Part shown: one piece after another, positions 19,062 to 57,691 of the stretch
Numbering within the stretch: the stretch's first letter is position 1
Layout: every line of letters begins with the position of its first letter
From: an uncultured bacterium
Lineage (GTDB): Bacteria; Hinthialibacterota; Hinthialibacteria; Hinthialibacterales; Hinthialibacteraceae
Reading direction: 5' to 3'
Assembly (NCBI GenBank): GCA_964419335.1
Contig: CAYQOX010000027.1
Span: 180 to 64,179, forward strand
Length of the DNA stretch: 64,000 bases
Position numbers and translations under genes: made by a program
The notes under the pieces: generated by a model
Database searches by the model: none
Told to the model about the DNA's origin: nothing
The model's input: the letters and a program-made list of their open reading frames with translations, nothing else

Positions 19062-20222
19062 ATGAGTTACAAAAAAACTTTTTTATCCTATACAATACTC
19101 ATCATGGTGGGAGTTTTGCTCTTCCATTCCCTTGGTTGGGGAGGCAATCCCTTAGTTTTACCCACGGGCAAAGTATTGCACTGGCCCACGAAGGACATCT
19201 CGTTCCATATCGATAAAGGCCCACTGGGACCCTATCCCAACAAGTTAGCCAAACAATGGGTCTTGCTCGCCTTTGAAAAATGGAGTGAAATTCCGCACCT
19301 TGACCTCAACCTACAATTTGAAGGAACTTACGACGAAGAAATCACCTACGAGAACTACCATAAAGAAATCAAAGAAAAAAATACCGACCGAAATCCCATC
19401 ATTTTCGACGACGGTTCGATCATCGAGTGGCTACGAGGCGAAGGTGCTTCAACAAACTACCTGGGATTGACCATCCCTTTTTATCATAACAGTAGCGGTG
19501 AAATCAACCGGGTCATCACCATCCTCAACGGCAAACAATTGACCGGCACAGAAGATGATCTCAATCGAATCATGTCAACCATGCTGCATGAATTTGGCCA
19601 TTTCTTCGGCTTAGACCACTCCCAACTCTATCCTGAATTTGCCTTTGATACCGATCCCTCTAATAACCTTTTCCTACCCGTTATGTTTCCTATCGAAACC
19701 GAAGATCAAATCTCACCCGCCTCTCCAAGTCAAGATGACAAAACCACTCTTCAATCCCTTTACCCTCTCCCCTCTTTCCAACAAGAACGAGGCTCCATCC
19801 AGGGAACAGTCATGCGCCCCGCCGGCGATGTCGTCCAAGGAGCCAATGTGGTGGCCGTCAATATTGACAAACCCTACGTCGAAGCCTATGCCACCATCTC
19901 CGACCTGATGATCGAATTTACAGGTGAATTCGTCTTTGAAGGCCTCCCTCCTGGATGGTATGAAGTTTATATCGAACCTCTCAACCAGCAATTTATGGGA
20001 GTTTCGCGGGTTGGGCCTTTTTCAGAAGACGAATTATCTCCCTCTTTTATAAATCCTGTCACCAAGGAATACTATAATGGTAGCCGTGAAAACGGCTACA
20101 TGAATGTAGATGATCCTATGGATCGTGTGTTTATCGAAGTCAACGCCGGCGAAACGGTCACCGATATTGACTTTATCACCAACGAAGAAACCAATGCTGT
20201 AAATTGCTGGGATCTTTATTAA
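19062..20222 (+). CDS. Secreted matrixin/M10-like zinc metalloprotease with a carboxypeptidase-regulatory-like domain
   Basis: Metzincin motif HEFGHFFGLDHS and Met-turn VMFP; GSIQGTV...GANVVA domain; signal peptide. Confidence 0.82.
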   Translation: MSYKKTFLSYTILIMVGVLLFHSLGWGGNPLVLPTGKVLHWPTKDISFHIDKGPLGPYPNKLAKQWVLLAFEKWSEIPHLDLNLQFEGTYDEEITYENYHKEIKEKNTDRNPIIFDDGSIIEWLRGEGASTNYLGLTIPFYHNSSGEINRVITILNGKQLTGTEDDLNRIMSTMLHEFGHFFGLDHSQLYPEFAFDTDPSNNLFLPVMFPIETEDQISPASPSQDDKTTLQSLYPLPSFQQERGSIQGTVMRPAGDVVQGANVVAVNIDKPYVEAYATISDLMIEFTGEFVFEGLPPGWYEVYIEPLNQQFMGVSRVGPFSEDELSPSFINPVTKEYYNGSRENGYMNVDDPMDRVFIEVNAGETVTDIDFITNEETNAVNCWDLY

Positions 20223-20234
20223 TTCTCATTTCAC

Positions 20235-20263
20235 TTGGAAACTTTCAAGGCTTATGGTACGCT
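20235..20263 (+). promoter_or_regulatory. Putative sigma70 promoter for hpf-pta-ackA
   Basis: TTGGAA-17 nt-TACGCT with an extended -10 TG. Confidence 0.45.
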
Positions 20264-20457
20264 CATAATAAATAATAGTACGGAAAAAGCTCATGGCTGA
20301 GCGTGGAATCGCCTTCCACAGAGAATGGGCTGAACGTATCAACCGTGGGATCTCTACACCGAAATCTGGGGGGAATGTCCATCACAATCGAGGGTATAAA
20401 ATAACCACTGATTGGTTTTTCCGGAGCGAATCGCTTTTAGGAAGGAGAACCAGGCCT

Positions 20458-20751
20458 ATGCGTATCGAGATTACGAGCAGAAGGCATCAACTCTCCGACC
20501 ACCTCAAAGAGTATATCGAATCCAAAGTATCAAAATTGGAAAAATATGCTCACGGAGATTGTGATGCACATGTTGTCATGGAGAGAAAAGATAATTTTCA
20601 AACCGTAGAGATTACGGTACACGCTCTCCATAAAGTGTTGCATGCCGAAGACACCGGGGACAAAGTACGTGCATGTATCGATAAGGTGGTAAGCAAAGTC
20701 GAAAAGCAAATGCGCCGACTTAAAGACAAACAACTTGATAAAAGGAATTGA
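20458..20751 (+). CDS. hpf: Ribosome hibernation promoting factor (short HPF/RaiA)
   Basis: MRIEITSRRHQLSDHLKEYIESKVSKLEKY...IDKVVSKVEKQMRRLK; RBS AAGGAG before ATG 20458. Confidence 0.9.
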   Translation: MRIEITSRRHQLSDHLKEYIESKVSKLEKYAHGDCDAHVVMERKDNFQTVEITVHALHKVLHAEDTGDKVRACIDKVVSKVEKQMRRLKDKQLDKRN

Positions 20752-20759
20752 TAAGTATC

Positions 20760-21764
20760 ATGCATCCACTGGAAAGAATTCTAAACGAAGCCAAAAAAAA
20801 CCCCATGCGTATCGTTCTTCCTGAAGCCACCGATCCTCGTATGCTGGAAGCCGCGCGACGAGCCGCCGATGAGAAAATCGCTCACGTGATTCTCATCAGC
20901 CCACAAGCAGAAATCGAAACGGCTGCCAAAGAATCTGGGACCCACCTTGATCGCCTCACGATTGTCGATCAAAGCCGCGATGAGAGAATCCAAGATTGGT
21001 CTGCTTACTTCGCTGAAAAACGCAAGCACAAAGGATTGACCGTGGACCAAGCTGAACAAACACTGCGTGATCCTCTCTTCTTCGGAGCCATGATGGTACA
21101 CAAAGATGCAGCCGACGGCATGGTTGCTGGTGCCGTCAACACCACCGGAAACGTCATCCGATCAGCCCTCCAAATCGTTGGCGTCGAACCCGGCATCGGC
21201 ACCGTTTCTTCCTGCTTCATGATGATCGTTCCCGATTGCCCTTTTGGCGTTAATGGCACCTTGATGTATGGCGATTGCGGCGTGGTTCCCGATCCGAACC
21301 CAGAACAACTCGCCGACATCGCCATCTCAACCGCCGGTTCCATGAAAAATCTCGTGGGAGCCGAAGCGATTGTCGCCATGCTTTCTTTCTCCACCATGGG
21401 CAGCGCTTCTCACCCCATCGTGGAGAAAGTCATCGAAGCCACAAAAATCGCCAAGGAAAAACGCCCCGATCTCCGTATCGAAGGCGAACTCCAAGCCGAT
21501 GCCGCCCTGATTGAGTCTATCGGAAAAAAGAAAGCCCCAGAGAGCACCGTTGCCGGCCAAGCCAATACCCTCATCTTCCCCGATCTTAATGCCGGCAATA
21601 TTGCTTATAAACTCACTGAACGATTGGCAAAAGCCGAAGCCTATGGGCCTTTGTTACAAGGCTTGGCACAGCCCATCAACGACTTGTCACGCGGGTGCAG
21701 CGCAAACGATATCTTCAACACCATCGCGATCACCTGTGTACAAGCCCAGGCAGCAAAAAACTAA
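20760..21764 (+). CDS. pta: Phosphate acetyltransferase
   Basis: IVLPE, GELQADAA, FPDLNAGNIAYK, PINDLSRG. Confidence 0.96.
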   Translation: MHPLERILNEAKKNPMRIVLPEATDPRMLEAARRAADEKIAHVILISPQAEIETAAKESGTHLDRLTIVDQSRDERIQDWSAYFAEKRKHKGLTVDQAEQTLRDPLFFGAMMVHKDAADGMVAGAVNTTGNVIRSALQIVGVEPGIGTVSSCFMMIVPDCPFGVNGTLMYGDCGVVPDPNPEQLADIAISTAGSMKNLVGAEAIVAMLSFSTMGSASHPIVEKVIEATKIAKEKRPDLRIEGELQADAALIESIGKKKAPESTVAGQANTLIFPDLNAGNIAYKLTERLAKAEAYGPLLQGLAQPINDLSRGCSANDIFNTIAITCVQAQAAKN

Positions 21765-21847
21765 GCGAATCAAATAGGTATCGTTCGGCGTCGATACGAT
21801 AAATGAACCCATAGAAATTACTTGCATCTACCTGAGAGGAAAACATC

Positions 21848-23107
21848 ATGAAAGTTCTTGTCTTGAATAGCGGTAGCTCATCGGTAAAATTTCAACTCAT
21901 TGAAACCGACTTGGATCGAATTAAAAATCAAAACGAAGTCGTTTTAGCACGCGGGATGGTCGAAAAGATCGGGCTCTCTCCCGCGATCCTGCGCTATCAA
22001 TTTCTTAACGAAAATCCCATCCTTCTTCCTGAGAAAAAAGACTCTCTCCCCCCAGAAACCAAAGAACCGATCGAAATCTTAGACCACGGCGAAGCCATTA
22101 ATTATGCTCTCAAAGCCTTAACCAATCCCCAAAAAGGAGTCGTCTCTTCTCCCAAAGAAATCGAAGCCGTGGGTCACCGCATCGTCCACGGCGGAGAACG
22201 CTTCCAACAATCCGTGGTTATCGATGACGAGGTGGTCAGCGGGATCCAAGCCTGCGTTGAATTCGCCCCGCTCCACAATCCCCATAACTTGAACGGCTAT
22301 TTCGCCACTCGCGAGATTCTTTCGCATTGCCCTCACGTTGCTATTTTCGATACCGCTTTTCACCAAACCATGCCGCCTAAAGCCTATCTCTATGGACTTC
22401 CATATTCGATTTATAAAAAACATGGGATTCGCCGGTACGGTTTTCATGGCATCTCTCACCGCTACGTCTCCTACCGCTTGGGACAATTGGTCGGCATCAC
22501 CCGTGACCACCTTCGTATTATCACCTGCCATTTAGGGAATGGTTGCAGCGTTACCGCCCTGGATCATGGAAAATCCATCGACCATTCCATGGGCTTCACG
22601 CCTCTCGAAGGTCTCCTCATGGGCACCCGCACCGGCGATATGGATCCCTCCATCATTCTCACCCTTATCGCCAAAGAAGAACTTACCATCAACGAAGCCA
22701 ATAACCTCATGAACAAACATTCCGGCCTCGTGGGAGTTGCAGGCGTTTCCAGCGATATGCGGGAAATTCAAATCGCCGCGAAAGACGGCAATGAACGCTG
22801 CCAAATCGCCATCAATATGTTCACCTACCGCCTGAAAAAATACATCTCCGCTTACGCCGGAGCGATGGGGGGCGTCGATCATATCATCTTCACCGGAGGC
22901 ATTGGCGAAAACTCCACGGAAATACGAGCCCTGAGCTGTGAAAACCTTGAGTTCATGGGCATCGAAATCGATGAAGAACGAAATAATAACTGCGCTGGGC
23001 GGGAAGGCAAAATTTCCCCTGATTCTGCCAAAGTGGGGATTTGGGCGATACCCACCAACGAAGAACTCGTCTTCGCCCGCGATACCGTACGTTGCATTCT
23101 TCAATAA
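21848..23107 (+). CDS. ackA: Acetate kinase
   Basis: VLNSGSSSVK, GHRIVHGG, APLHNP, FDTAFH, HLGNG, FTGGIGEN, PTNEE. Confidence 0.97.
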   Translation: MKVLVLNSGSSSVKFQLIETDLDRIKNQNEVVLARGMVEKIGLSPAILRYQFLNENPILLPEKKDSLPPETKEPIEILDHGEAINYALKALTNPQKGVVSSPKEIEAVGHRIVHGGERFQQSVVIDDEVVSGIQACVEFAPLHNPHNLNGYFATREILSHCPHVAIFDTAFHQTMPPKAYLYGLPYSIYKKHGIRRYGFHGISHRYVSYRLGQLVGITRDHLRIITCHLGNGCSVTALDHGKSIDHSMGFTPLEGLLMGTRTGDMDPSIILTLIAKEELTINEANNLMNKHSGLVGVAGVSSDMREIQIAAKDGNERCQIAINMFTYRLKKYISAYAGAMGGVDHIIFTGGIGENSTEIRALSCENLEFMGIEIDEERNNNCAGREGKISPDSAKVGIWAIPTNEELVFARDTVRCILQ

Positions 23108-23155
23108 TATTGAAGACAATGAACCGATATTTAAACTTTAACAGGAGATTCGCGA

Positions 23156-24574
23156 ATGATGGTTCAACGTTTTTTACTTACCGGTTTTCTTTTCACGGCG
23201 TTCTCTTTTTCGGTTTTCTCTCAATCTGAAATCACCGAAAAACCTTTATCAGGACCTTGCGTGGAATTCTCTCATGGGAAACTGGAAGTCTCAGAAAATG
23301 AACGCTTTCTTCAACATGATGATGGGACTCCCTTCTTTTATCTTGGAGATACCGCTTGGGAACTGTTTCACCGCCTAGATCGAGAAGAAGCGGATAAATA
23401 TCTGGAAAATCGGCGGCAAAAAGGGATTAATGTCATCCAAGCAGTCGTACTGGCCGAATTGGATGGCTTAAACCAGCCCAACCCCTACAACCAAACCCCA
23501 TTAATTGATAACGATCCTGCTAAACCCAACGATAAATACTTCGAACATGTCGATTACATTGTAGAGAAAGCCGCCGAAAAAGGCCTGTATATCGGTATGC
23601 TTCCTACCTGGGGAGATAAAGTCAACAAAAAATGGGGGGTTGGACCGGTCGTCTTCAATAAAACCAACGCCGAAAAATACGGTCGCTACCTGGGAAAACG
23701 TTACCAAGACCATCCCAATATCATTTGGCTCCTCGGCGGGGATCGCGTACCGGAAGACACCGAAGATATTTGGCGCTCCATGGCCAAAGGCATTCTCGCC
23801 CACGATACCAACCACCTTATGACCTATCATCCCCAAGGGGGACGCTCAAGTTCCAAATGGTTCCATAACGATGATTGGCTCGATTTCAATATGCTGCAAT
23901 CCGGACATAGCCGTTACAACAATCCCAACTATCAACAAATTCAGCGGGATTACAACAAAACCCCAGTAAAACCATGCATGGATGGCGAACCCTGTTATGA
24001 AAACCATCCAGTCGACTGGAATCCAGAAAAAGGGTGGTTCGATGAATACGACGTTCGCAAAGCCTGTTATTGGGCACTCTTCGCCGGCGCCCACGGCCAT
24101 ACCTACGGCTGCCACGATATCTGGCAAATGATGGCGCCTGGCCGCCAGCCGATTTCATCCGCCCGTAATCACTGGGACGAAGTCCTCAATCTTCCCGGGG
24201 CATGGGATATGATGCACGCCAAACATCTCCTTCTTTCCCGTCCCTTTTTCAACCGGGTGCCGGATCAATCTCTGATCGCCGACGGCCAGGGAGAAGGAAC
24301 CCACCATGTCCAAGCCACTCGTGGCGATGATTATGCGTTTATCTATATCCCCACGGGACGAAACATCAAAATCAACCTGGGCAAAATTTCGGGAGACACT
24401 GTAACAGCCTGGTGGTATGATCCTCGTACCGGCGAAGCCGAAAAAATCGGAGAAAAAGAGAATCAAGGCACCCTGGAAGTCGATCCTCCAGGAGAACCAG
24501 GGAAGTACAATGACTGGGTCCTAGTCCTAGATGATGATTCCAAGAAATTTCCACCACCAGGACAACTAAAATAA
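23156..24574 (+). CDS. GH140 (apiosidase-like; DUF4038 plus putative collagen-binding domain) glycoside hydrolase
   Basis: PFFYLGDTAWELF, MLPTWG, QSGH, DGEPCYE, GHTYG, WYDPRTG, DWVLVL; signal peptide. Confidence 0.85.
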   Translation: MMVQRFLLTGFLFTAFSFSVFSQSEITEKPLSGPCVEFSHGKLEVSENERFLQHDDGTPFFYLGDTAWELFHRLDREEADKYLENRRQKGINVIQAVVLAELDGLNQPNPYNQTPLIDNDPAKPNDKYFEHVDYIVEKAAEKGLYIGMLPTWGDKVNKKWGVGPVVFNKTNAEKYGRYLGKRYQDHPNIIWLLGGDRVPEDTEDIWRSMAKGILAHDTNHLMTYHPQGGRSSSKWFHNDDWLDFNMLQSGHSRYNNPNYQQIQRDYNKTPVKPCMDGEPCYENHPVDWNPEKGWFDEYDVRKACYWALFAGAHGHTYGCHDIWQMMAPGRQPISSARNHWDEVLNLPGAWDMMHAKHLLLSRPFFNRVPDQSLIADGQGEGTHHVQATRGDDYAFIYIPTGRNIKINLGKISGDTVTAWWYDPRTGEAEKIGEKENQGTLEVDPPGEPGKYNDWVLVLDDDSKKFPPPGQLK

Positions 24575-24599
24575 TTTGGCGAGATTCAATCATTCAAAC

Positions 24600-24631
24600 A
24601 AAAGGGGGGATGCACAAATCCCCCCTCTTTT
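24600..24631. terminator. Bidirectional rho-independent terminator
   Basis: AAAAGGGGGGAT-gcacaa-ATCCCCCCTCTTTT between convergent genes. Confidence 0.85.
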
Positions 24632-24665
24632 CTTGAAGACTTTTCTCTTGAAGCTCCTTTTCAAC

Positions 24666-25745
24666 TTAATAAATCGACCACGATCCAATCCGGCTGCCCC
24701 CTATCGCCGGAGGTTCATTGGCATAAAGTCCAAAAATATGGTCAACATTTACAGCGAAAGCCTCCCCTTCCAAGGAAGCATCCATCATCATTCCCACTTC
24801 TTCCAATCCATCCTCGCCGAGTTCATACCAATAAATTTCACTCCATCCACCCTCAGCATGGTTGGTAATTAATAAATCCACATTCTCATCTCCATCGACC
24901 GAAGCAACGGTCATACCTTCCGCACCACTCCCGGTTTCACGCAGAAGGATTTCTTGCAATGAATCGGCATATTCTCCGGAAGACGTTTGCTCCAATAGAT
25001 AAAGAACGTTCGAGGTGACATCGCCATAAAACATCTTGCTAAGCACAAAATCACGATCTCCATCCTGGTCATAATCCACCGCGGCAACACCATTCAGCCC
25101 CCCTAAGTCAGGATAATCCGCTCCCCAATCCAAATCCTGGGAATACACTTCCGTCGGCTCGCTAATCACAGAGAGTGTACCATCCTCTTCTACACGCAAT
25201 TCTTGATCATAGAGGATCCCGACTGATGTCACATCGCTGTCTTCCAACCAGACCATTCTCAGTTGTCCATCCGACCAGTAGACATCCACGCCTAAGGGGC
25301 TAATATCCGCAGGCGTCGTATGGATGGGATCTTGCACAACCTCCCAATTTCCTTCGCCATTTAATCGCCGATGCTGAAACTCGGTTCCTTCACTAGGAAA
25401 ATGACTCTCCCCTTTGGAAACCGCAAGAATCGCATGCGGTTCAGATTCTCCTTCCAAATAAAAGAGATCAATTCCCATATCATAAATAGGACCGGAATAA
25501 TCTTCGTTCATAATCAGCGGCTCTTCTAAGTATTCTTGCGTCAGCTCCCACCATCCATTACTTTCCTCATAGACCCATCTCATAAGGCTATAACCAGACT
25601 CCGGAGATTCACTCCCCCAATTGCTCGTCCACATACTATACCCATCGGGTATCCCTTCGACATATTCTTGACTACTTACAGAAAGACCCAAAAACATACT
25701 CATCACGAAAAAGACACTGACCTTCTTCAAAATGTTTTGACGCAT
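24666..25745 (-). CDS. Secreted acidic hypothetical protein with FG-GAP/VCBS-like Ca-binding motifs
   Basis: Signal peptide; DYDQDGDRD and SVDGDENVDL motifs; RBS GGAG/GAGG. Confidence 0.7.
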   Translation of the reverse strand: MRQNILKKVSVFFVMSMFLGLSVSSQEYVEGIPDGYSMWTSNWGSESPESGYSLMRWVYEESNGWWELTQEYLEEPLIMNEDYSGPIYDMGIDLFYLEGESEPHAILAVSKGESHFPSEGTEFQHRRLNGEGNWEVVQDPIHTTPADISPLGVDVYWSDGQLRMVWLEDSDVTSVGILYDQELRVEEDGTLSVISEPTEVYSQDLDWGADYPDLGGLNGVAAVDYDQDGDRDFVLSKMFYGDVTSNVLYLLEQTSSGEYADSLQEILLRETGSGAEGMTVASVDGDENVDLLITNHAEGGWSEIYWYELGEDGLEEVGMMMDASLEGEAFAVNVDHIFGLYANEPPAIGGSRIGSWSIY

Positions 25746-25931
25746 CCTCTCATCTCCTTTTACACTTAGAATTGTTTTACTTCTTCCTTCTCACTCCAAT
25801 AAGTGTAAAACCAATATTATTCACCTCCTTACATTGAATAGATATATATACAATTGCGAAATAAATTTATCATAGGTCTCCACATAATTCAAATGAATTT
25901 ATAAAAATTTATTTCCCAATGAATAAAACAC

Positions 25932-25964
25932 AAAAAAAGGGTGGAACCTTTCGCTCCACCCTCT
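25932..25964 (-). terminator. Rho-independent terminator after the EF-G paralogue
   Basis: Minus strand AGGGTGGAGC-gaaag-GTTCCACCC followed by T7. Confidence 0.85.
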
Positions 25965-25993
25965 CGAATCGATGTCCTATGTGACTCCGAAGA

Positions 25994-44561: not shown

Positions 44562-44586
44562 ACCTCCCACGCCTTTCTCTATAAAA

Positions 44587-46019: not shown

Positions 46020-46035
46020 GCAGGAGAATAATCGT

Positions 46036-49588: not shown

Positions 49589-49606
49589 CTCATTATAGGA
49601 CTCATC

Positions 49607-50551
49607 GTGACTTTATTCTTCGAAATCACAGGTATCGTCTTCCCCGTCTTTCTCATCATGGCTATTGGCTACGGCCTCCGGCGCATCCAATTCCTCGATG
49701 CTCTCTTTATACAACAAGCCAATCGCTTGGTCTTTCACATTTGCCTCCCCCTGCTCTTGGTCTATAAAATCGGCACCTCCGATTTTGGCGCCAATTTCAA
49801 CCTCTATTTACTGCTCACCTCCTATCTCACCATCACCACAATTATGGCGATCTCCTACGCCTATGCCCATTGGCGGGGCTATCCTCCCAATCAAAGCGGC
49901 GTTTTTTGCCAAGGTTCCTTCCGCGCCAATATGGCCATCGTTGGCCTTGCAATTATATTCAACGCCTACGGCAACGAAGGCCTCACCCGCGCGGGGATTC
50001 TCATGGGACTCATTGTCCCTTTCTTGAATTTCTTCTCTGTGCTCATCCTCCTCTTCCCTCATGCACGCCAAGAACAATTTCATCCCCTGACCTACCTCAA
50101 GCAAATCCTCCTCAATCCGCTTATCATTGGTTCGCTGATCGGCATTGCCTGGAGCCTGCTCGAAATCCCACTCCCCCAGGTGCTCGACCGCACCTTGGAC
50201 ATTTTCACCAGCATGACCCTGCCCCTCGCCCTCTTATGTATTGGTGCGGGATTCACGTTCCAGCGCCTCCAGGGTGATCTATGGCAAATCAGTACAGCGG
50301 TTTTCTTCAAAAACATCCTCCTGCCCTGCATCGCCGCTCTCTATTTCATCCTTTTTCACGTTCATAACCTGGATTTCGCCATCGGTGTCCTCTTGCTGGG
50401 CAGCCCTACCGCTGCCGCCTCGTATATCATGGCTTCACAAATGAAGGGCGATTCCGAACTGGCCGGGGCTATCATCGTTCTCTCCACCTTGCTTTCTATT
50501 CTCACCTATTCTCTCATCCTCGCCGCCTTGGCCTTATTCTCCATCCCTTAG
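49607..50551 (+). CDS. AEC (auxin efflux carrier) family transporter
   Basis: FRANMAIVGL, NPLII, LALLCIG, PTAAASY. Confidence 0.88.
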   Translation: MTLFFEITGIVFPVFLIMAIGYGLRRIQFLDALFIQQANRLVFHICLPLLLVYKIGTSDFGANFNLYLLLTSYLTITTIMAISYAYAHWRGYPPNQSGVFCQGSFRANMAIVGLAIIFNAYGNEGLTRAGILMGLIVPFLNFFSVLILLFPHARQEQFHPLTYLKQILLNPLIIGSLIGIAWSLLEIPLPQVLDRTLDIFTSMTLPLALLCIGAGFTFQRLQGDLWQISTAVFFKNILLPCIAALYFILFHVHNLDFAIGVLLLGSPTAAASYIMASQMKGDSELAGAIIVLSTLLSILTYSLILAALALFSIP

Positions 50552-50646
50552 AAGAAAACAAGAGCGCGTTCTTCTTCTCTGAACTTATCAACCCATTTTA
50601 TTTATGATTGAATAACGTAACAGACTCAAGCCAGGGGAGGCTACTC

Positions 50647-51954
50647 ATGCAATCCAATTTCATAAACCGCCGTACCTTTGGGCGTCTTAGCGCCGCCCTG
50701 GGCTTAACCGCCGCCTCGACACGTGTACTCGGCGCCAATGAAACCATTTCGCTTGGACTGATTGGCTGCAGCAATCGCGCCCAAGGCCTCGTACGCACCT
50801 TCCTGAAATGCGGTGCCGAGTTCCGCGCCGCGTGTGATGTGGATCAAAAACGCTTAGAACGGGGACGCCATCTCTGCGGCATCGATGAAGACGCTTGCTA
50901 TAAGGATTATCGCAAACTTTTGGAACGTAAGGATCTGGACGCCGTACTCATCGCCACGCCCCCGCATTGGCACCCGCTTCCGTTCGTGGATGCCTGCAAG
51001 GCTGGACTCGATATCTATTGTGAAAAACCGCTGGGCGTGACGATTTATGAAGGCCAACAAATGGTGAAAGCCGCCCGTCAATATGATCGTATCACCCAAT
51101 GCGGCACCCAATCGCACTCCGCCCCCTATTACCACGAAGCCATCCAGCGCCTCCACGAAGGCGAAATAGGCCGTATCTTCAAAGCCAAAAGTTGGAGCCT
51201 GCGCAATAACGATCCCGCCGGTATGGGCCCCGCGAAAATCACCGATCCTCCCCCTGAACTGGATTGGGACTTCTGGCTTGGCCCCTTACCCGAACGTGAT
51301 TATTTCCCCCAGCGCTGCCATGGCGGCTTTCGCTGGTTTTGGGATACCGACGGCGGTTGGATGACCGATTGGGGCGTGCATCAGTTCGACATCATCCAAT
51401 GGGGCATTCAGCAATACGCCCCCTTGGCCGTCTCGGCCGAAGGCGGTAAGTTCTTCTTCACCGATTGCTCCGAAACTCCCGACTCCTTCGACGCTGTCTT
51501 TCGCTTCAAAGACTGCCTAGTACAGTTCACCGTCCGCTCTTGGAACGCGCATTCGCCATCCCATGAACCGAAGCAGCCCACCTGGGATGGCTATGGCATC
51601 GAGTTTTATGGCGAGAAAGGCACCATGTTCATCGACCGCGACCGCTACATCATCTGGCCGGAAAAAGGCAAGTTCGGCGAAGGCGTCGAGGCCGCAGAAG
51701 TCTCCGGCGACTATACCACCATGGGCACCAACCACGTCACCGAATTCTTGGATAACATCAAAACCCGCAACCGCTGTGCCTGCGATGTGGAAGTCTGCCA
51801 CTTCGCCAGCAGTACATGCCACCTTGGCAACATCGCCTTCCGTTCGGGGGAACGCATTGTGTGGGATCAGGAAAACGAGCGGATTACGAACCACCCCGAA
51901 CTAAACTCCTGGCTCAAACGCCCCTATCGCGAACCCTGGACGTTGGAAGTGTGA
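50647..51954 (+). CDS. Tat-exported Gfo/Idh/MocA oxidoreductase
   Basis: NRRTF signal; ATPPHWH, YCEKP, WLGP, DWGVH. Confidence 0.9.
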   Translation: MQSNFINRRTFGRLSAALGLTAASTRVLGANETISLGLIGCSNRAQGLVRTFLKCGAEFRAACDVDQKRLERGRHLCGIDEDACYKDYRKLLERKDLDAVLIATPPHWHPLPFVDACKAGLDIYCEKPLGVTIYEGQQMVKAARQYDRITQCGTQSHSAPYYHEAIQRLHEGEIGRIFKAKSWSLRNNDPAGMGPAKITDPPPELDWDFWLGPLPERDYFPQRCHGGFRWFWDTDGGWMTDWGVHQFDIIQWGIQQYAPLAVSAEGGKFFFTDCSETPDSFDAVFRFKDCLVQFTVRSWNAHSPSHEPKQPTWDGYGIEFYGEKGTMFIDRDRYIIWPEKGKFGEGVEAAEVSGDYTTMGTNHVTEFLDNIKTRNRCACDVEVCHFASSTCHLGNIAFRSGERIVWDQENERITNHPELNSWLKRPYREPWTLEV

Positions 51955-52175
51955 ATTTGACCAGAACAGACTATGTCAAGTAAAAAATCGTCGTTCGTTT
52001 AAGCAGGGATTTTTATGTTACGTAATTAGGTTTATCTCATCGGTTGGCTCGGATGAAAAAGAAACATTCGAATCTAAGAGGAAAAGAAATATGGTTAAAA
52101 AAAGATTATGTTATTAATTGCTTTCATTTTTTCACCTTTAACCACTGTTCAAATTTTGGGGGACAGTATATTATA

Positions 52176-53555
52176 TCATTCAGGATCAAGCACAAAATCC
52201 ACCTTGAGACTCTTCTTGCGCTGCATAAATCCGGTATCCACAATGTGTTTATCCTCTTGATACTCTGGCGCGCTGGCCTTGAGCAAATGCTCTTCGCTGT
52301 GAATCATGAATTCATAGTAACCATTTTCATCCGTCCGGGCTTCTGCATAAGGCGGCTGATTTAAGTAATACGCAACCACTTTGGCATTCGTAACGGGTTT
52401 TAATGTCTCCGCATCACGCACCACCCCCTTGCACTGTACTTGCGGTTGCTTTCCCTCGACTTTTCGTTCTCCGCCATTCCCCACTTTCAGGGTTACTGGA
52501 CTAAATTCGGCCCCAATCTTGATCCGTCCCGCTCCTTCACCAAGTTTCCCTTGCACCTTTTGCTTCAACATCTCTTTTTCATGATTCAAAGAAGCGGGTG
52601 CATGAATTTGCCCCATATTCGATTCTGCATCGACGATTCCATTGAAACCTTTGGGCAGGTGAATTCGAGTCGCACCAAAAGAAAAATTCCCAACCAACGT
52701 CACATCCTCGTTCAATCCCTGGATAGAACTTTGACTGAATTTCACCTCCAATTTCAAATCCCCATCATAATCCTCAATCGTCAAACCGCCGTACTCCACA
52801 TAATAATCTCCATCTCCCGTGTGATGATCAATATCGAGAGAACCAAACTTATTTTGGATCTTCGCATTTCCCCGCACGTTTTTTAATTGCACTGAACCAA
52901 ATTCATTTTTACAAATTATATCCGTATCAATATCGTTCAAGAGAATATCCCCAAAGTTATTATCAATATCTAAAGCCGAGAGATTTTCCGGGATTCGCAG
53001 TTTAATCTTATACACGCGCACGTCTCCCATTTCATGCTCCTTGTTAGTCACCCGCGGGACGCCGATCCGATACACCTCTTTCGTATCCTCGAAATCCACT
53101 TTCATCGTCTCTAAGATTTCTTTGGCTCTGTCTTCATTCCCCGCTCCCGCGATCATTTCAATCGAAGCATGAATTTCATCGGTCACCTTCCCCGGAACCA
53201 CAGCAATTTCAGAATAGGTCCCGTATAATTGCAGCGGCTTCTCCCCTTCAACCTTCCATGTTTGTTCCACCACCTGCGATTCCTTCACCCCCGTAAATTC
53301 ATTAAAAAATCGATCAAAAAATGGAATCGGGGGCATCTCGAAATCTAACGCCAGTTGAGACGGCTGCATATGAAAAGCATCAAAATTCTCTTCCATTTTC
53401 TCCATTTGCTTCTCGAGCAATTGCCGTTGTTTTTCAAATTGTTTCTCACTTTGCTCTAACAAATGATTAATATCCTGAGCCCTGCCTTCACCCGCCATCG
53501 CCAAACTGAAACAAAAGAACCCTGCGATCATTTTCATAATCTTTGAACGTAACAT
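52176..53555 (-). CDS. Secreted DUF4097-like beta-repeat protein with a C-terminal carboxypeptidase-regulatory-like domain
   Basis: Signal peptide; repeated xxxFGx(I/V/L) strands; GVVRDAET...TDENGYY. Confidence 0.65.
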   Translation of the reverse strand: MLRSKIMKMIAGFFCFSLAMAGEGRAQDINHLLEQSEKQFEKQRQLLEKQMEKMEENFDAFHMQPSQLALDFEMPPIPFFDRFFNEFTGVKESQVVEQTWKVEGEKPLQLYGTYSEIAVVPGKVTDEIHASIEMIAGAGNEDRAKEILETMKVDFEDTKEVYRIGVPRVTNKEHEMGDVRVYKIKLRIPENLSALDIDNNFGDILLNDIDTDIICKNEFGSVQLKNVRGNAKIQNKFGSLDIDHHTGDGDYYVEYGGLTIEDYDGDLKLEVKFSQSSIQGLNEDVTLVGNFSFGATRIHLPKGFNGIVDAESNMGQIHAPASLNHEKEMLKQKVQGKLGEGAGRIKIGAEFSPVTLKVGNGGERKVEGKQPQVQCKGVVRDAETLKPVTNAKVVAYYLNQPPYAEARTDENGYYEFMIHSEEHLLKASAPEYQEDKHIVDTGFMQRKKSLKVDFVLDPE

Positions 53556-53597
53556 GTTCACGACTCCTTCCACTTTTTTATCTCTCTATTCCCTGAC

Positions 53598-54293
53598 TCA
53601 AAATGATTCGCCATCCCCATTTACCCTCTCTCCTCGATCCATAGAGGGCTGTTCCCCTTCTTTTAACGCCTGACACAAAGATTCCAGAGTTTCCACATTC
53701 TGATAAATCGCGCGGCAAAACCCCCGTTGAGTCACTGGATCGCCTTGAGTTTCCCGATAATACTTTTGGATCATTTCCGAGGTATAGCGAACCTGCTCAA
53801 TGGGATAACGCCACACCTCGGGCGCAGAGACGAGGGATTGATCCGCCTTCTCTTCCAAAATGCTTTCCAACTGATCCAGCAATTCATTTTGGGCAGTCAC
53901 CAGCGCGCTAAACGTCCTATCAGGATCAACCGCCTCTGAACTTAACCGTACGTGTTGGCCGATCCATAATCCGCTGAGAAACACCACAAACAACACCATC
54001 GCTCCCGCGGCCAAGGCCCGCAAACGAAACATCCACCGTACGGCCTCTTTCTTCGCCCCCGCTTTCTCCTCCACAATCCGGCCGGGAAGCCCATCCGGCA
54101 TCACCGGCCGGGGGAGATTCTGCAAAAAAACGTACTGGTTTTGTATCTCTTCGACTTGCGTACGACAGGCATCACACTCCACCACATGAGCCACGATGGC
54201 TGCTTGCTCTTCGGTAGTCAATGCATCCTCGCGTCCCTCTAGGGCCTCAACATAGAGAAACAATTTTTCTGGATCACAACGGTTGATCTTCAT
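53598..54293 (-). CDS. Zinc-binding (ZAS) transmembrane anti-sigma factor
   Basis: HVVECDAC (HxxxCxxC), a TM helix, directly downstream of an ECF sigma. Confidence 0.82.
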   Translation of the reverse strand: MKINRCDPEKLFLYVEALEGREDALTTEEQAAIVAHVVECDACRTQVEEIQNQYVFLQNLPRPVMPDGLPGRIVEEKAGAKKEAVRWMFRLRALAAGAMVLFVVFLSGLWIGQHVRLSSEAVDPDRTFSALVTAQNELLDQLESILEEKADQSLVSAPEVWRYPIEQVRYTSEMIQKYYRETQGDPVTQRGFCRAIYQNVETLESLCQALKEGEQPSMDRGERVNGDGESF

Positions 54294-54306
54294 GATTCCA
54301 TCTCTC

Positions 54307-54894
54307 TCAAAAACCCATCCGTTTCAACTTCTCTCGTAGTTCACGTTCCGCTCGAAACGCCAGGTTTTTTACCGTACCTTCCGGTTTGTTCATCACCTTA
54401 GAAATTTCTTTATATTTCATCCCCTCGAAGAAGCGCAATATCAACACACTCCTTTTCTCTAAATCCAAACGCTGCAGCAAGCGCTCCACCGCTCGCTCCC
54501 GCTCTCTCGCATCGAGCCTCTCACCGATGGGCTCTTCCTCATCGGCCAGCCACTCCTCCGGCTTCAACCCCAAAGGTGAAACAAATCGCCGTACTTTCCG
54601 CCACCGCAACAGCGAAATCGCCTTCCGCCGCGCAATGGTAAAGAGGAAGGGACGAAGCGAAACATCCGTCTTTAAACTCGCCCGATGTTTATACACCTGC
54701 CAAAAGGTTTCCTGAGCCAAATCTTCTGCATCCTCGCCATTCCCCACCATCCGTTTCAAAAAAGCATACAACGAAGGCGAATGATGCGCGACAATCAAAG
54801 CAAACGCCCGCTCGCTCCCTTCTTTGACTTGTTTGATCCACTCTTGCTCTTCCATCGCAGCATACGTTAAAGGTTGTTTGCTTGTCATTTCCAC
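54307..54894 (-). CDS. ECF sigma-70 family sigma factor
   Basis: DAEDLAQETF, region 4 EGMKYKEIS...EGTVK. Confidence 0.92.
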   Translation of the reverse strand: MEMTSKQPLTYAAMEEQEWIKQVKEGSERAFALIVAHHSPSLYAFLKRMVGNGEDAEDLAQETFWQVYKHRASLKTDVSLRPFLFTIARRKAISLLRWRKVRRFVSPLGLKPEEWLADEEEPIGERLDARERERAVERLLQRLDLEKRSVLILRFFEGMKYKEISKVMNKPEGTVKNLAFRAERELREKLKRMGF

Positions 54895-55030
54895 ATTCCG
54901 TCAACCCGATTCACTCTTAGAATTCGCTTCCTATCGAAAAAAGTTTCATTTTCTTTTTGAAATTGACGAAACTACGGAAAATATGAAAATATCTCTAATT
55001 TCCCTATATAAATGATAAACTTTTCATTCT

Positions 55031-57691
55031 GTGATATCATTACAATACATCCTTTGTTTCATGGGAGCCTTATCCTTGCGAGTCACGAACCTCTTTAACC
55101 TACTACCTATCGTTTTGCTCTCCTTCTCTGCGTGGAGCGCAGATCAAGACATCGTGATCAACGAGATCATGTATCACCCCCACGTGGATTGTTCCTATAC
55201 CGAATTCATTGAGTTGACGAACAAAGGAGATCAACCGGTTGACCTAGGCGGCTGGTTTGTTTCAGACGGAGTCTTGCTTACCCTTCCTGATGAAGTAATC
55301 CTCGAACCGGGTGACTATTGTCTATTCGTCCGCGATCCTGAGGCCTTTCGCCAAGAATACCCGGATGTCGAAGCCCCTATCATCGGTCCCTATGAACGCA
55401 AACTCTCCAACAGCGGCGAACGGCTGGCCATTATGAACCGCGAGCGAGAAATCATCGACGAATTCACCTGGGACGATGCCTATCCCTGGCCTGTGGCTGC
55501 CGATGGCATGGGAGCCTCACTCGAATTAATCCATCCCAGCCTCGACAACTCCCAACCGGGCTATTGGCGTCCCGCCGAAGGAGTCCGCTATGTAGACGAG
55601 ACTCCCTACATCCGCTTTGACCGTCTAGATACTCACGCTACTCCAGGCCAGCGCAATTCCGTATACAGCGAAGAAATCCCTCCCAACCTACAAGACATCC
55701 GCCATGATCCCCATGCCCCTGAAAGCGGCGAAGAAGTCTTCGTCGCCGCTACCATTGAACACCCTTCGCAACTGGATTCCATCATTCTTCAATACCAAAT
55801 CGTCCATCCTGGACACTACATACGCCTAACCGACAAAGAATACTCTACCAACTGGACAGATATTTCCATGCACGATTCCGGTGAGTTTCCTGACGCCCAT
55901 GCAAACGACGGAATCTTCACCGCCTCCATTCCCGCCCAAGACCACCGCGACTTAGTCCGCTACAAAATTACGGCCCTAAACAAAAACGGGGCTTCCGTTA
56001 CCGCCCCCCATCCCACCGATCCCTCCCCCAATTTTGCCTACTTTGTCTACGATGGGGTTCCCCCCTACCGCGTAACCAAACCCGAAGAACGCATCCATAC
56101 CCAATTGACCGAGGTCCCCGTCTATCACCTCCTCGCGGATGCTGACGATATCCGTGAGTGCGAAAATGTCCAAACCAACAAAACCACCCGCAACTACTTC
56201 CAATGGTATGGAACCTTCTACTACAACGGCGAGGTCTACGACCACATCCGCTACCGCCTGCGCGGCGGCGTCTGGCGCTATACCTTCAATAAACGCATGT
56301 GGAAAATCCGCCTCAACAAAGGCGCTTATTTTCGCGGCCACAACAACGATGGCACCCCCTATGATCCTCCCCGCCGTACCCTCAACTTAAACTCCCTCTC
56401 CCAAAATATGCAAATTAACGATCCCCACCGTGGCGAACTAGGCCTCTTCGAAACCGCAGGCTTTTGGCTTTTTGGTCGGGTGGGCTGCGGAACCTTCGAC
56501 ACCACTTGGGTACATTACCGCATTATCGATGATGAAAGCGAAGAAGGAGAAGACCAGTTCTCCGGCGATTTTTACGGCCTTTACCTCAACATCGAACAAG
56601 CCGACGACCGCTACATCGAAAACCACGATTATCCAGAAAATTCCAGCCTCTATAAAATGCACCGCGGCTGGACCGGCACCGATAAAATTTGGGAAAAAGA
56701 AACTAACAACTGCGATCCCCCCGACGATTCCGACCTCGTCGAATTCTACCAAGGCTATAACCGCCGCGATGGCGATCAATACCTCCAACAACACCTCAAC
56801 ATCGAAAAATATCTCTCCTACCGCTGTATTGTCGAAGCCATCCATCATTACGATATCTACGCCGAAAAGAATTATTACTACCTGCGTAATGGCGCCAATA
56901 ATCTATGGGAAGTCATCCCCTGGGATCTGGATATCACCTTCGGCTCGGACCATGGCGATGGCAACGAACCCTTCCGCGATAAACTCATCGGCAATCTCGC
57001 CGCCAACCCCAACGTCGACAAAGAATACACCATGGAATTCCGCAACCGCCTGCGCGAAGTGGTTCAACTCCTCTATAACGAAGAAGTCTTCTTCCCTGTC
57101 CTCGATCAGTGGAAAGCGTTAATCGACGAAATCGCCGCCGCAGACTTAGACCGCTGGGATCTCTACCAACCTCCCGATGCCCCTCCCCACAAAAGCCGCT
57201 ACAAACCACTTGATGTACGCCTCCAAGAAATGAAAGACTGGATCAAACAGCGGATTTACGAAGATTACACGGATAACAATAATGGCCCCAAAAATTTCGT
57301 TCCCGCTCTGGTTAACATGGCCGCCGACGACCAGATCCCCCATCCGCCTTCCATCATAACCCCACAATCACAAACAAACTTCACCCCCGCAAACTCTTTG
57401 CGCCTCGAAAGCTCTCCCTTTGAAGACCCCAACCCCGACGATCTCCACATGGCCTCTCGCTGGATCATTACTCGCGAAGATCATTTCGAAATCCAGCCCG
57501 ACTGGGATAGCCGTCCCACTCAGCAAGAACGAACCTCCATCTCTGTCCCCCTGCAACAATTTGAACCGGGCTATGCCTATCGCGCACGGGTGAAATACCA
57601 AGACCAAACCGGACGCTGGAGCGAATGGTCTAAACCTGTTTCTTTTGTTCTTCGAAAACCCGTTTCTGTCCAAGAATGGAATATACATTGA
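55031..57691 (+). CDS. Secreted CotH-kinase-family protein with a lamin-tail domain
   Basis: IVINEIMYHP...EFIEL (lamin tail); RLRGG...WKI, YGLY..IE, KNYY, IPWDLD (CotH); start uncertain. Confidence 0.82.
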   Translation: MISLQYILCFMGALSLRVTNLFNLLPIVLLSFSAWSADQDIVINEIMYHPHVDCSYTEFIELTNKGDQPVDLGGWFVSDGVLLTLPDEVILEPGDYCLFVRDPEAFRQEYPDVEAPIIGPYERKLSNSGERLAIMNREREIIDEFTWDDAYPWPVAADGMGASLELIHPSLDNSQPGYWRPAEGVRYVDETPYIRFDRLDTHATPGQRNSVYSEEIPPNLQDIRHDPHAPESGEEVFVAATIEHPSQLDSIILQYQIVHPGHYIRLTDKEYSTNWTDISMHDSGEFPDAHANDGIFTASIPAQDHRDLVRYKITALNKNGASVTAPHPTDPSPNFAYFVYDGVPPYRVTKPEERIHTQLTEVPVYHLLADADDIRECENVQTNKTTRNYFQWYGTFYYNGEVYDHIRYRLRGGVWRYTFNKRMWKIRLNKGAYFRGHNNDGTPYDPPRRTLNLNSLSQNMQINDPHRGELGLFETAGFWLFGRVGCGTFDTTWVHYRIIDDESEEGEDQFSGDFYGLYLNIEQADDRYIENHDYPENSSLYKMHRGWTGTDKIWEKETNNCDPPDDSDLVEFYQGYNRRDGDQYLQQHLNIEKYLSYRCIVEAIHHYDIYAEKNYYYLRNGANNLWEVIPWDLDITFGSDHGDGNEPFRDKLIGNLAANPNVDKEYTMEFRNRLREVVQLLYNEEVFFPVLDQWKALIDEIAAADLDRWDLYQPPDAPPHKSRYKPLDVRLQEMKDWIKQRIYEDYTDNNNGPKNFVPALVNMAADDQIPHPPSIITPQSQTNFTPANSLRLESSPFEDPNPDDLHMASRWIITREDHFEIQPDWDSRPTQQERTSISVPLQQFEPGYAYRARVKYQDQTGRWSEWSKPVSFVLRKPVSVQEWNIH

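What the first reader, a model, noticed from the sequence alone, without database searches (positions are those of the whole stretch)
19062..57691. Shared C-terminal tail [VI]-x-x-W-x-[LI]-[YH]-stop on three unrelated secreted proteins: candidate undescribed protein sorting or anchoring system
Seen: three unrelated proteins, each with an N-terminal signal peptide, end in the same register. They are the M10-like protease (19062-20222) ...ETNA-VNCWDLY*, the FG-GAP-like protein (24666-25745, minus) ...GGSR-IGSWSIY*, and the CotH/lamin-tail protein (55031-57691) ...KPVS-VQEWNIH*. Each tail follows a short linker beyond the last domain. I did not see the motif on cytoplasmic or Tat proteins in the window. 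Established: short conserved C-terminal tags route proteins to dedicated machineries (T9SS CTD, PEP-CTERM/exosortase, LPxTG/sortase, GlyGly-CTERM/rhombosortase, BAM beta-signal). This tail has no TM segment or basic tail, is far shorter than a T9SS CTD, and its carriers are not beta-barrels, so it fits none of those. Inference: it is a lineage-specific signal for outer-membrane export or surface attachment. From memory and unverified, similar tails occur in Sumerlaeota/OLB16-type candidate phyla.
Basis: partly seen in the sequence, partly recalled or inferred. Interest (0 to 1): 0.85.

Follow-up and report, generated by a model that had tools for sequence, protein, structure and literature searches.

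The report
New C-terminal tag on secreted proteins
About 55 unrelated exported proteins in this uncultured bacterium, and their relatives across its small phylum, end in the same short tryptophan-containing tail, which looks like an undescribed address label for delivery to or attachment at the cell surface.

Summary
The three window proteins end VNCWDLY*, IGSWSIY* and VQEWNIH*. In the 4.7-Mb genome, 46 gene products end in [VI]xxWx[LIVMF][YHF], and 9 more carry 1-2 extra residues. About 0.12 are expected by chance.

The 55 carriers fall into 36 unrelated families. 47 of 55 have Sec-type signal peptides, and none has a twin-arginine motif. The consensus is E-P-T-x-[VI]-x-[DE]-W-x-[LI]-[YF]. 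The tail is unstructured in an AlphaFold model and conserved in orthologues.

It is enriched in most of the 35 genomes of the phylum. It is absent from 61 Planctomycetota, 3 further PVC-group genomes and 6 other bacterial genomes. No Pfam or NCBIfam model covers it.

It differs from PEP-CTERM, LPXTG, GlyGly-CTERM, the T9SS CTD and this genome's own OMP beta-signals.

Tail genes sit next to GspG-like pseudopilin genes about six times more often than chance predicts, and some flank a T2SS operon.

Best reading: a lineage-specific sorting or docking tag, possibly read by T2SS/pseudopilin machinery. The receptor is unknown.

The parts
19062..20222 (+). Gene for a signal-peptide-bearing M10-like metalloprotease with a CarboxypepD_reg-like beta-sandwich and the C-terminal tail
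   Evidence: The AF2 model gives pLDDT ~90 for the catalytic domain and places the last strand at residues 365-372. Orthologues in 9 genera of the same family keep the tail.
20187..20219 (+). Tail ETNAVNCWDLY, followed by the stop codon at 20220-20222
   Evidence: Residues 376-386 have pLDDT below 50 in the model. W is invariant in 13 aligned orthologues.
24666..25745 (-). Gene for a signal-peptide-bearing FG-GAP-like protein with the tail
   Evidence: The FG-GAP_3 match (21.8 bits) is below the Pfam cut-off.
24669..24701 (-). Tail GGSRIGSWSIY, followed by the stop codon at 24666-24668
55031..57691 (+). Gene for a signal-peptide-bearing LTD + CotH protein with the tail
   Evidence: The orthologue (57% identity) in the named MAG ends ...GVGVEDWVAY*.
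57656..57688 (+). Tail KPVSVQEWNIH, followed by the stop codon at 57689-57691

Best explanation
The tail is a phylum-restricted C-terminal address or docking peptide. Its consensus is E-P-T-x-[V/I]-x-[D/E]-W-x-[L/I]-[Y/F/H], with zero to a few trailing residues. It hangs on a flexible linker behind the last folded domain of many unrelated proteins. These proteins are first exported unfolded through Sec and signal peptidase I.

Because one near-identical peptide is shared by at least 36 protein families, I infer one common receptor, a many-to-one arrangement. That receptor would act in the periplasm or at the outer membrane and would route the cargo to the cell surface or the medium, or hold it there.

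The most likely machinery, at roughly 0.3 on its own, is the type II secretion / pseudopilin apparatus. This genome has a complete T2SS operon, six secretins and 91 GspG-like prepilin genes, and tail genes are often co-oriented neighbours of such prepilin genes. On that reading the tail would work like the disordered export signal of TcpF, which hooks onto a pilin of its type IV pilus, but placed at the C-terminus and serving dozens of cargoes.

Shown: existence, enrichment, restriction to Sec substrates, conservation, lineage range, lack of structure, absence of a known model, and linkage to pilin genes. Inferred: that it is a sorting or docking signal, its receptor, and the destination.
For: Enrichment:
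- 46 gene products end in the core motif, 8 have +1 residue and 1 has +2. There are none at +3 to +8 and 1 at +9.
- 0.12 are expected at C-termini from the internal rate.

Independence of carriers:
- The 55 carriers form 36 single-linkage clusters, 31 of them singletons.
- Their domains are diverse: Laminin_G_3 in 7, LTD in 5, CotH in 5, CBM9 in 3, plus FG-GAP, cohesin/dockerin, S8, WD40 and others among 43 scanned.

Export route:
- 47 of 55 are signal-peptide-like. Of the 8 that are not, 2 visibly lack their N-terminus at a contig end, 1 has a clear signal peptide miscalled as a TM segment, and 1 is a 101-aa fragment.
- Only 2 have a lipobox-like string.
- 0 of 55 have an RR motif, against 256 of 3,533 genes.

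Cargo type:
- NCBIfam hits among carriers include choice_anch_X (3), choice_anch_Y (1) and an M36 protease. That protease's best matches are the T9SS-, rhombosortase- and myxosortase-dependent M36 families. These are protein families that carry different sorting tags in other lineages.

Shape:
- Information is confined to positions -11 to -1.
- The tail has pLDDT below 50, following a confident last strand.

Conservation:
- 9 of 9 same-family orthologues of the protease keep the tail.
- 3 of 3 orthologues in the sister family keep the core plus 2-5 residues.
- 18 of 20 database homologues of another carrier keep it.

Range, using a DNA pattern for the tail with its reversed pattern as control:
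- Same family: 18-53 hits against 0-8 controls in 20 of 20 genomes.
- A genus in another family of the class: 21-43 hits.
- Weaker elsewhere in the phylum.
- The named MAG: 25 against 1.
- 61 Planctomycetota: none above control.
- One Pirellulales (Planctomycetota), 3 further PVC-group genomes and 6 other genomes: none above control.

Pilin and T2SS link:
- 14 of 47 tail genes have a prepilin gene as immediate neighbour. Random gene sets average 1.9 (maximum 8) and random signal-peptide genes average 2.9 (maximum 10), each over 1000 draws.
- 18 of 91 prepilin genes touch a tail gene.
- In two distant genomes, 8 of 30 tail loci hold a prepilin gene within 1.5 kb. 5 of these are directly downstream on the same strand.
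- The T2SS operon on contig C2 is flanked by pilin-tail and tail-pilin-pilin genes.
- The orthologous operon has a tail gene within about 10 kb in 2 of 4 relatives examined.

Precedent:
- The disordered N-terminal export signal of TcpF binds the minor pilin TcpB (abstracts read).
Against: - No receptor was identified and nothing shows where the proteins end up.
- About two thirds of tail genes have no adjacent pilin gene.
- Tail-adjacent pilins are not a distinct clade: 15 label changes on the tree against a shuffled mean of 16.5, and 19% of shuffles reach 15 or fewer.
- Pilin gene number does not track the strict tail count across the phylum. One genome has 166 pilin-pattern hits and only 2 tail-pattern hits.
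- Pilin, tail, sulfatase and GFO-oxidoreductase genes lie together in polysaccharide-utilisation-like loci. Adjacency may therefore reflect co-regulation rather than contact.
- The T2SS flank synteny is seen only within one family and is missing in 2 of 4 relatives.
- Signal peptides were called with a crude rule, and genes with a home-made caller.
Confidence: 0.55

Rival explanations
1. The tail is a processing, quality-control or degradation tag. A periplasmic PDZ-domain protease (Prc/CtpA/DegS-like) reads it, so it controls maturation or turnover rather than location.
For: Short hydrophobic or aromatic C-termini are the classical ligands of periplasmic PDZ proteases (established knowledge, recalled). 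A trypsin-like protease with a PDZ domain is encoded on contig C75. The tail is unstructured and exposed.
Against: 9 of 55 carriers here, and 3 of 3 orthologues in the sister family, have 1-5 residues after the motif. A free carboxylate right after the aromatic residue is therefore not required. There is no obvious reason why 36 unrelated families of large binding or degradative proteins should share a degradation tag that stays conserved in orthologues. The tag is absent from Tat-exported periplasmic enzymes. S41 proteases were not searched for.
Confidence: 0.12
2. The tail is a self-sufficient interfacial anchor. The W, L and Y side chains dip into the outer membrane or bind a surface glycan directly. 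No protein receptor or dedicated machinery exists, and export itself is by an unrelated route.
For: Trp and Tyr favour membrane interfaces (established knowledge, recalled). No receptor was found. One cohesin-dockerin scaffold-like protein carries the tail where anchoring modules sit in cellulosomal scaffoldins (that position is recalled).
Against: Seven to nine residues with conserved polar positions (T at -9, D/E at -5, S/E at -3) look like a specific peptide ligand rather than a lipid anchor. The conserved register relative to the end also suggests recognition by a protein. The gene linkage to pilins is left unexplained.
Confidence: 0.15
3. The tail is a BAM-type beta-signal or a strand that completes an outer-membrane barrel.
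For: It ends in an aromatic residue, as OMP beta-signals do.
Against: Carriers have soluble domains, not barrels. The genome's own OMP-like proteins end differently, for example ...SLRYSF...GLRFRF...QLMYKF, and ...SISASF in the TonB-dependent receptor. These have alternating hydrophobics and a terminal F. The tail tolerates H at the last position and extra residues.
Confidence: 0.05
4. The shared ending is due to chance, composition or common descent of paralogues.
For: One 12-member and one 5-member paralogue group are among the carriers.
Against: Enrichment over the internal rate is about 300-fold. There are 36 unrelated clusters. The reversed-pattern controls give 0-8 hits. The tail is conserved in orthologues while the linkers vary.
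Confidence: 0.01

Closest known systems
Tripartite C-terminal sorting signals read by dedicated sortases (PEP-CTERM/exosortase, LPXTG/sortase, GlyGly-CTERM/rhombosortase, MYXO-CTERM)
   Same: A short signature at the C-terminus of many unrelated signal-peptide-bearing proteins. Many cargoes per genome. Lineage-restricted. Found on 'choice-of-anchor' type cargo.
   Different: There is no transmembrane helix and no basic cluster after the motif. No exosortase family gene was found in the genome. Without a TM helix the cargo is not held in the inner membrane, so a membrane-embedded transpeptidase is unlikely.
T9SS C-terminal domain (type A/B CTD)
   Same: It marks Sec-exported, multi-domain degradative or adhesive proteins for transit across the outer membrane and surface attachment. 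The cargo classes are similar, for example M36 and S8 proteases and LamG/CBM proteins.
   Different: The CTD is a folded domain of about 70-100 residues. Here only about 11 residues are conserved and they are unstructured. No T9SS sorting-domain model hits the carriers or the genome. The genome search had no positive control.
Export signal of T4b-pilus exoproteins (TcpF/CofJ) that binds the minor pilin
   Same: A short disordered linear peptide on a Sec-exported protein. A pilin-family protein is the receptor and export runs through a secretin (abstracts). Here the tail genes are linked to prepilin genes and to a T2SS.
   Different: That signal is N-terminal, serves one cargo per system, and its binding is shown experimentally. 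Here the tag is C-terminal, serves about 55 cargoes, and binding is not shown.
OMP beta-signal / PDZ-read C-terminal tags (DegS, Prc)
   Same: An aromatic-rich extreme C-terminus on envelope proteins.
   Different: The register and residues differ from the genome's own OMP ends. The carriers are not barrels. The motif need not be at the very end.

Membership tests
PEP-CTERM / exosortase | PEP-like motif followed by a hydrophobic TM helix and an Arg-rich end | tested here: not met
   The tails end 7-9 residues after the T/P region, with no hydrophobic stretch or basic cluster.
PEP-CTERM / exosortase | An exosortase (EpsH family) gene in the genome | tested here: not met
   PF09721 gives no match in G000, which is 96.8% complete.
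LPXTG / sortase and GlyGly-CTERM / rhombosortase | Signature motif + TM helix + basic tail | tested here: not met
   The sequence lacks a TM helix and a basic tail. No such NCBIfam sorting model is among the listed families for the 43 carriers, of which only the top 25 of 45 families were shown.
LPXTG / sortase and GlyGly-CTERM / rhombosortase | A sortase or rhombosortase gene is present | not tested
   PF04203 and PF01694 were not searched.
T9SS C-terminal domain | Folded C-terminal domain of about 70-100 aa that matches TIGR04183/TIGR04131-type models | tested here: not met
   Conservation is limited to the last 11 residues. The tail is unstructured. TIGR04183 gives no match in the genome, but that search also rang in none of the 14 control genomes. 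No shared model is found in the 43 carriers.
BAM beta-signal | The carrier is a beta-barrel OMP whose last strand ends ...aromatic-x-F/Y/W | tested here: not met
   Carrier domains are soluble folds. The genome's OMP-like ends differ from the tail.
T1SS C-terminal secretion signal | Cargo lacks an N-terminal signal peptide and is exported in one step | tested here: not met
   47 of 55 carriers have signal-peptide-like N-termini.
PDZ-read C-terminal tag | The motif must sit at the free C-terminus | tested here: inconclusive
   46 carriers have it exactly at the end, but 9 have 1-2 extra residues. The sister-family orthologues have 2-5 extra residues.
Pilin-bound export signal (TcpF type) | A disordered linear peptide on a Sec-exported cargo | tested here: met
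Pilin-bound export signal (TcpF type) | The peptide binds a pilin of the cognate T4P/T2SS | not testable with these tools
   Only gene linkage is seen. Testing it needs binding assays.
Pilin-bound export signal (TcpF type) | The signal lies at the N-terminus of the mature protein | tested here: not met
   The tag is C-terminal.

The most novel reading that the evidence does not exclude
The tail is a sequence-defined, linear C-terminal targeting signal. It hands dozens of different folded cargoes to GspG-like pseudopilin adaptors of a type II secretion (endopilus) system, for export or pilus-borne surface display. This would be the first general, readable T2SS cargo signal. It would also explain the large orphan pseudopilin families of PVC-type bacteria.
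Probability: 0.2. Interest if true: 0.9.

Novelty: new variant of a known kind. Interest (0 to 1): 0.72.

Why it matters
C-terminal sorting tags have repeatedly led to the discovery of envelope machineries such as sortases, exosortases, rhombosortase and the T9SS. This tag marks about 1.5% of the proteome of a whole candidate phylum known only from metagenomes. It carries the proteins most likely to meet the environment: proteases, lectin-like and carbohydrate-binding proteins, CotH/LTD proteins and a cohesin scaffold. It is invisible to current annotation, where the NCBI names seen for homologues are only 'hypothetical protein'.

The tag immediately gives a way to list the surface or secreted proteome of these organisms. 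It also gives a handle, in the form of a peptide bait, for finding the machinery. If that machinery is the T2SS/pseudopilin system, the finding would bear on the long-open question of how T2SS recognises its substrates.

Tried and rejected
1. Co-folding of a tail-adjacent pseudopilin with the tail. The pilin was residues 30-186 of the C14 pilin, given as a 16-row alignment (A2). The tail was the last 40 residues, given as a 43-row alignment (A3). The score was 0.00 and the verdict 'no answer'. I do not count this for or against binding.

2. Known-model check. No family in NCBIfam or Pfam is shared by more than 7 of the 43 carriers. The TafC hits (4 carriers) concern haloarchaeal Tat-fimbria subunits (search listing and abstract starts only). 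I take them to reflect shared body domains rather than the tail. This is an inference: the matched regions were not shown.

3. The 10-TM protein on C75 that ends KISDWPLY. Its orthologues conserve ...[IV]-[TS]-[ED]-W-P-x-x(-x) right after the last TM helix, with variable last residues. The family was not found in the other orders that still have tails. I treat it as a look-alike juxtamembrane motif, neither a cargo nor the machinery.

4. The C4:76031 protein (ending ...SIDWMVY). Its ending abuts a cohesin match and lacks V/I at -7, so it is a probable false positive of the loose pattern.

5. Phyletic profiling inside the phylum. All 35 genomes have at least a few pattern hits and all have many prepilin genes, so no contrast was available. 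The genomes with few hits show variant forms, namely W-R-L-Y in G028, and use another C-terminal module, a dockerin-like end on the CotH orthologues.

6. Pilin subfamily test. Tail-adjacent pilins are scattered on the pilin tree.

7. Literature. Six searches found no description of this tail. The OLB16 paper does not mention it (term search of the main text and section 6 read). They may list secretion genes of Hinthialibacter, but I have no sign that they treat C-terminal motifs.

Full report
OBSERVATION

Pfam finds Peptidase_M10 plus CarboxypepD_reg in the first. It finds a sub-threshold FG-GAP_3 match in the second, and LTD plus CotH in the third. NCBIfam has nothing on their C-termini at E up to 0.1.

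GENOME-WIDE TEST

The window is contig C27 of a 4.70-Mb, 115-contig assembly with 45.5% G+C, estimated 96.8% complete.
- Of 15,861 six-frame ORFs of at least 60 aa, 40 end in [VI]..W.[LI][YHF].
- Among ORFs of at least 150 aa, Trp is over-represented at position -4: 113, against 27-78 at the other eleven last positions.
- I made a crude gene set of 3,533 ORFs by codon-usage score and greedy overlap removal. It covers 88% of the genome.
- In that set 39 products end in the strict motif. The motif occurs internally 46 times in 1.36 million positions, so 0.12 are expected at C-termini.
- 33 of the 39 have a signal-peptide-like N-terminus and no further TM segment, against 954 of 3,533 overall (odds ratio 15, p = 6e-14).
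- With a looser pattern the figures are 41 of 47. The signal-peptide rule is a simple charge-plus-hydrophobicity test and over-calls.
- A logo of the 47 shows information only in the last eleven positions: E (-11), P (-10), T (-9: T 31, V 10), V/I (-7: 46 of 47), D/E (-5), W (-4), S/E (-3), L/I (-2), Y/F/H (-1: 35/7/5).
- The motif sits at the very end in 46 products. It is followed by one residue (E, K or D) in 8, by two in 1 and by nine in 1. There are none at +3 to +8.

WHO CARRIES IT

The 55 carriers (0-2 trailing residues) fall into 36 single-linkage clusters at E of 1e-10 or better, and 31 of these are singletons. 47 are signal-peptide-like. Of the 8 that are not, 2 visibly lack their N-terminus at a contig end, 1 has a clear signal peptide miscalled as a TM segment and 1 is a 101-aa fragment; the rest are dubious or, in one case, a 10-TM protein. 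Two have a lipobox-like string. None has a twin-arginine motif, against 256 of 3,533 genes.

A Pfam scan of 43 of them shows no shared family. It finds Laminin_G_3 (7), LTD (5), CotH (5), CBM9 (3), FG-GAP, Fn3-associated, cohesin, dockerin, S8, WD40 and others.

NCBIfam likewise shows no shared model. It does flag 'choice-of-anchor' X and Y domains. It also flags an M36 protease whose best matches are the T9SS-dependent, rhombosortase-dependent and myxosortase-dependent M36 families. These are protein families that carry different C-terminal sorting tags in other phyla.

STRUCTURE

An AlphaFold2 model of the window protease was built with 13 orthologues (mean pLDDT 71.7). It has a confident catalytic domain and a beta-sandwich whose last strand is residues 365-372. 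Residues 376-386, the tail, have pLDDT below 50. The tail is therefore a flexible appendage and not part of a fold.

CONSERVATION AND RANGE

Orthologues of the protease in nine other genera of the same family all keep the tail. Examples are SVSDWSLF, PVREWSLY, NILDWSLY and GVHEWPLF, and one has an added D. Three orthologues in a sister family have the core followed by QP or VPPIQ.

In the 5.8-billion-protein collection, 18 of 20 homologues of another carrier (the query itself included) end in the tail. The only names given are 'hypothetical protein [bacterium]'.

A DNA pattern for [V/I/M]xxWx[L/F]Y-TAA/TGA was compared with its reversed pattern as control.
- It gives 18-53 hits against 0-8 controls in all 20 genomes of the family.
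- It gives 6-18 in five of the six genomes of the two sister families and 2 in the sixth, which is 77% complete.
- It gives 21-43 in one genus of another family of the class.
- It gives 4-9 in the rest of the class.
- The GTDB phylum holds only these 35 species in one class.
- In a low-count genome all four hits read W-R-L-Y, which is a variant form.
- In two distant genomes, 27 of 30 pattern hits are the ends of long ORFs with the full T/S-x-V/I-x-x-W-x-L-Y tail.

Outside the phylum, six 'same domain' genomes have 0-3 hits. A Pirellulales, a Verrucomicrobiales, a Sedimentisphaerales and a Phycisphaerae genome that encode LTD/CotH relatives have 0-5 hits, no more than their controls. None of 61 Planctomycetota genomes exceeds its control.

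The closest named relative carries a CotH orthologue at 57% identity that ends GVGVEDWVAY. It is labelled 'Candidatus Omnitrophota bacterium isolate Ch114' and has 25 hits against 1 control. A paper on Ca. Hinthialibacterota states that OLB16 was formerly included in Omnitrophota. The phylum may be that one, but I could not verify this.

WHAT IT IS NOT

- It has no TM helix or basic end, so it is not a PEP-CTERM, LPXTG, GlyGly-CTERM or MYXO-CTERM type signal.
- No exosortase gene is present.
- No T9SS CTD model matches the genome. That search had no positive control.
- The genome's real OMP-type ends, such as SLRYSF, GLRFRF, QLMYKF and the TonB receptor's SISASF, differ in register and residue from the tail.
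- The carriers have N-terminal signal peptides, unlike T1SS cargo.

NEIGHBOURHOOD

Tail genes are scattered over 38 contigs. The one gene family that recurs beside them is a family of about 200-aa GspG-like prepilins. These have an N-terminal FTLIELLIVVAIIGILAAIAVPNF segment and a conserved C-terminal YDxSNGLxSxGDI motif. They match TIGR01710 below its cut-off.

- The genome has 91 such genes.
- 14 of 47 tail genes have one as immediate neighbour. Random gene sets average 1.9 and random signal-peptide genes average 2.9, with maxima of 8 and 10 in 1000 draws each.
- With the 55-gene set, 18 of 91 pilin genes touch a tail gene.
- Most pairs are co-oriented with short gaps.
- The link recurs in the two distant genomes. 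8 of 30 tail loci hold a prepilin gene within 1.5 kb, and 5 of these are directly downstream.
- It also recurs next to the CotH orthologue of the named MAG.

The genome encodes six secretin-domain proteins, seven full-length GspE/PilB-type ATPases and four GspF-type proteins. One operon on contig C2 is a complete T2SS. It encodes GspE, F, G, an H-like protein, J, K, an L-like protein, M, a weak C-like protein, and a secretin split into an N-domain protein and a secretin-domain protein. That operon is flanked by pilin-tail and tail-pilin-pilin genes. The orthologous operon has a tail gene within about 10 kb in 2 of 4 relatives examined, all within one family.

CAVEATS TO THE PILIN LINK

- Two thirds of tail genes have no pilin neighbour.
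- Tail-adjacent pilins are not a clade.
- Pilin numbers (28-206 pattern hits per genome) do not follow the strict tail counts.
- The same loci also hold Tat-exported sulfatases, GFO/IDH/MocA oxidoreductases and FGE-sulfatase-domain proteins. Co-regulation within polysaccharide-utilisation-like loci could therefore explain the adjacency.

MECHANISM

One peptide shared by at least 36 unrelated Sec-exported families, conserved in orthologues and restricted to one phylum, is the signature of a many-to-one sorting or docking signal.

I propose the following. After Sec export and signal-peptide removal, the folded cargo exposes the flexible tail in the periplasm. A common receptor binds the tail, probably as an extended strand, since conserved residues lie on both faces (T, V, D/E, S, Y on one and W, L on the other). 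The cargo is then passed through a secretin or held at the surface.

The only machinery with any genomic link is the T2SS/pseudopilin system. A precedent exists in TcpF, whose disordered N-terminal signal binds the minor pilin of its type IV pilus (abstracts). The receptor and the destination are inferred, not shown.

Rivals are a tag read by a PDZ protease, a receptor-free interfacial anchor, and a beta-signal-like strand. They are listed in the rival explanations with their evidence.

NOVELTY

Six full-text searches found no description of this tail. No Pfam or NCBIfam model covers it. C-terminal sorting tags are a known kind of system. This one is a new variant because it is short, lacks a TM segment, is unstructured, sits on Sec substrates of a diderm, and has an unknown reader.

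Noticed in passing
G000 contig C2:102104-117466 (locus L123): Complete T2SS operon in which the secretin is split into two adjacent genes. One encodes a 473-aa protein with N0/Secretin_N domains and the other a 410-aa protein with the secretin domain alone. A sigma-54-type two-component pair follows. Three of the six secretin-domain proteins in the genome are only 374-410 aa long.
   Followed up: partly
G000 genome-wide; examples L108-L122: 91 GspG-like prepilin genes make up the second-largest paralogue family. They have a near-invariant N-terminus and a conserved C-terminal motif YDxSNGLxSxGDI. All 35 genomes of the phylum have 28-206 of them by DNA pattern.
   Followed up: partly
G000 contig C75:9318-10874 (L015; P0004): A 518-aa protein with about 10 TM segments and no Pfam family lies just after the def-fmt genes. 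Its orthologues across three families conserve a juxtamembrane C-terminal ...LRNHxK[IV][TS][ED]WP.. end that resembles the tail. One orthologue (G006:C3) is read with 12 in-frame stops and may be broken.
   Followed up: partly
L104, L105 (genomes G033, G029) and paralogues of the window protease in L072, L079, L082: The phylum has a second recurrent C-terminal module. A Thr/Pro-rich linker is followed by a dockerin-like DxDGDGxIxxxDLLxF...FW end. It replaces the W-tail on CotH orthologues in tail-poor genera. The genome also has 8 cohesin and 10 dockerin matches.
   Followed up: partly
window 53598-54894 (-) and L003:368-1674: The two genes upstream of the CotH gene (231 and 195 aa) appear to be syntenic with an ORF pair of similar size (231 and 204 aa) upstream of the orthologue in the named MAG. 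That pair looks like an anti-sigma factor and an ECF sigma factor by reading the sequence; no family search or comparison was run. In the MAG a prepilin gene lies between that pair and the CotH gene, and in the window it does not.
   Followed up: no
G000 contigs C2, C8, C29, C63, C4, C15, C28, C35: Tail genes lie in loci with Tat-signal sulfatases, GFO/IDH/MocA oxidoreductases, an FAD oxidoreductase with a Golvesin_C domain and FGE-sulfatase-domain proteins. These look like polysaccharide-utilisation loci. The genome has families of 50 sulfatase-like and 67 GFO-like paralogues.
   Followed up: partly
G000, e.g. genes at C2:63817, C11:46129, C28:4407, C29:29588, C17:14550: Several further signal-peptide proteins end in degenerate versions of the tail (..SVRDWRSY..PIKEWMRY..SVLDYMLY..EVETWNEY..VSVGEFMVY). 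The true cargo set is therefore probably larger than 55.
   Followed up: no
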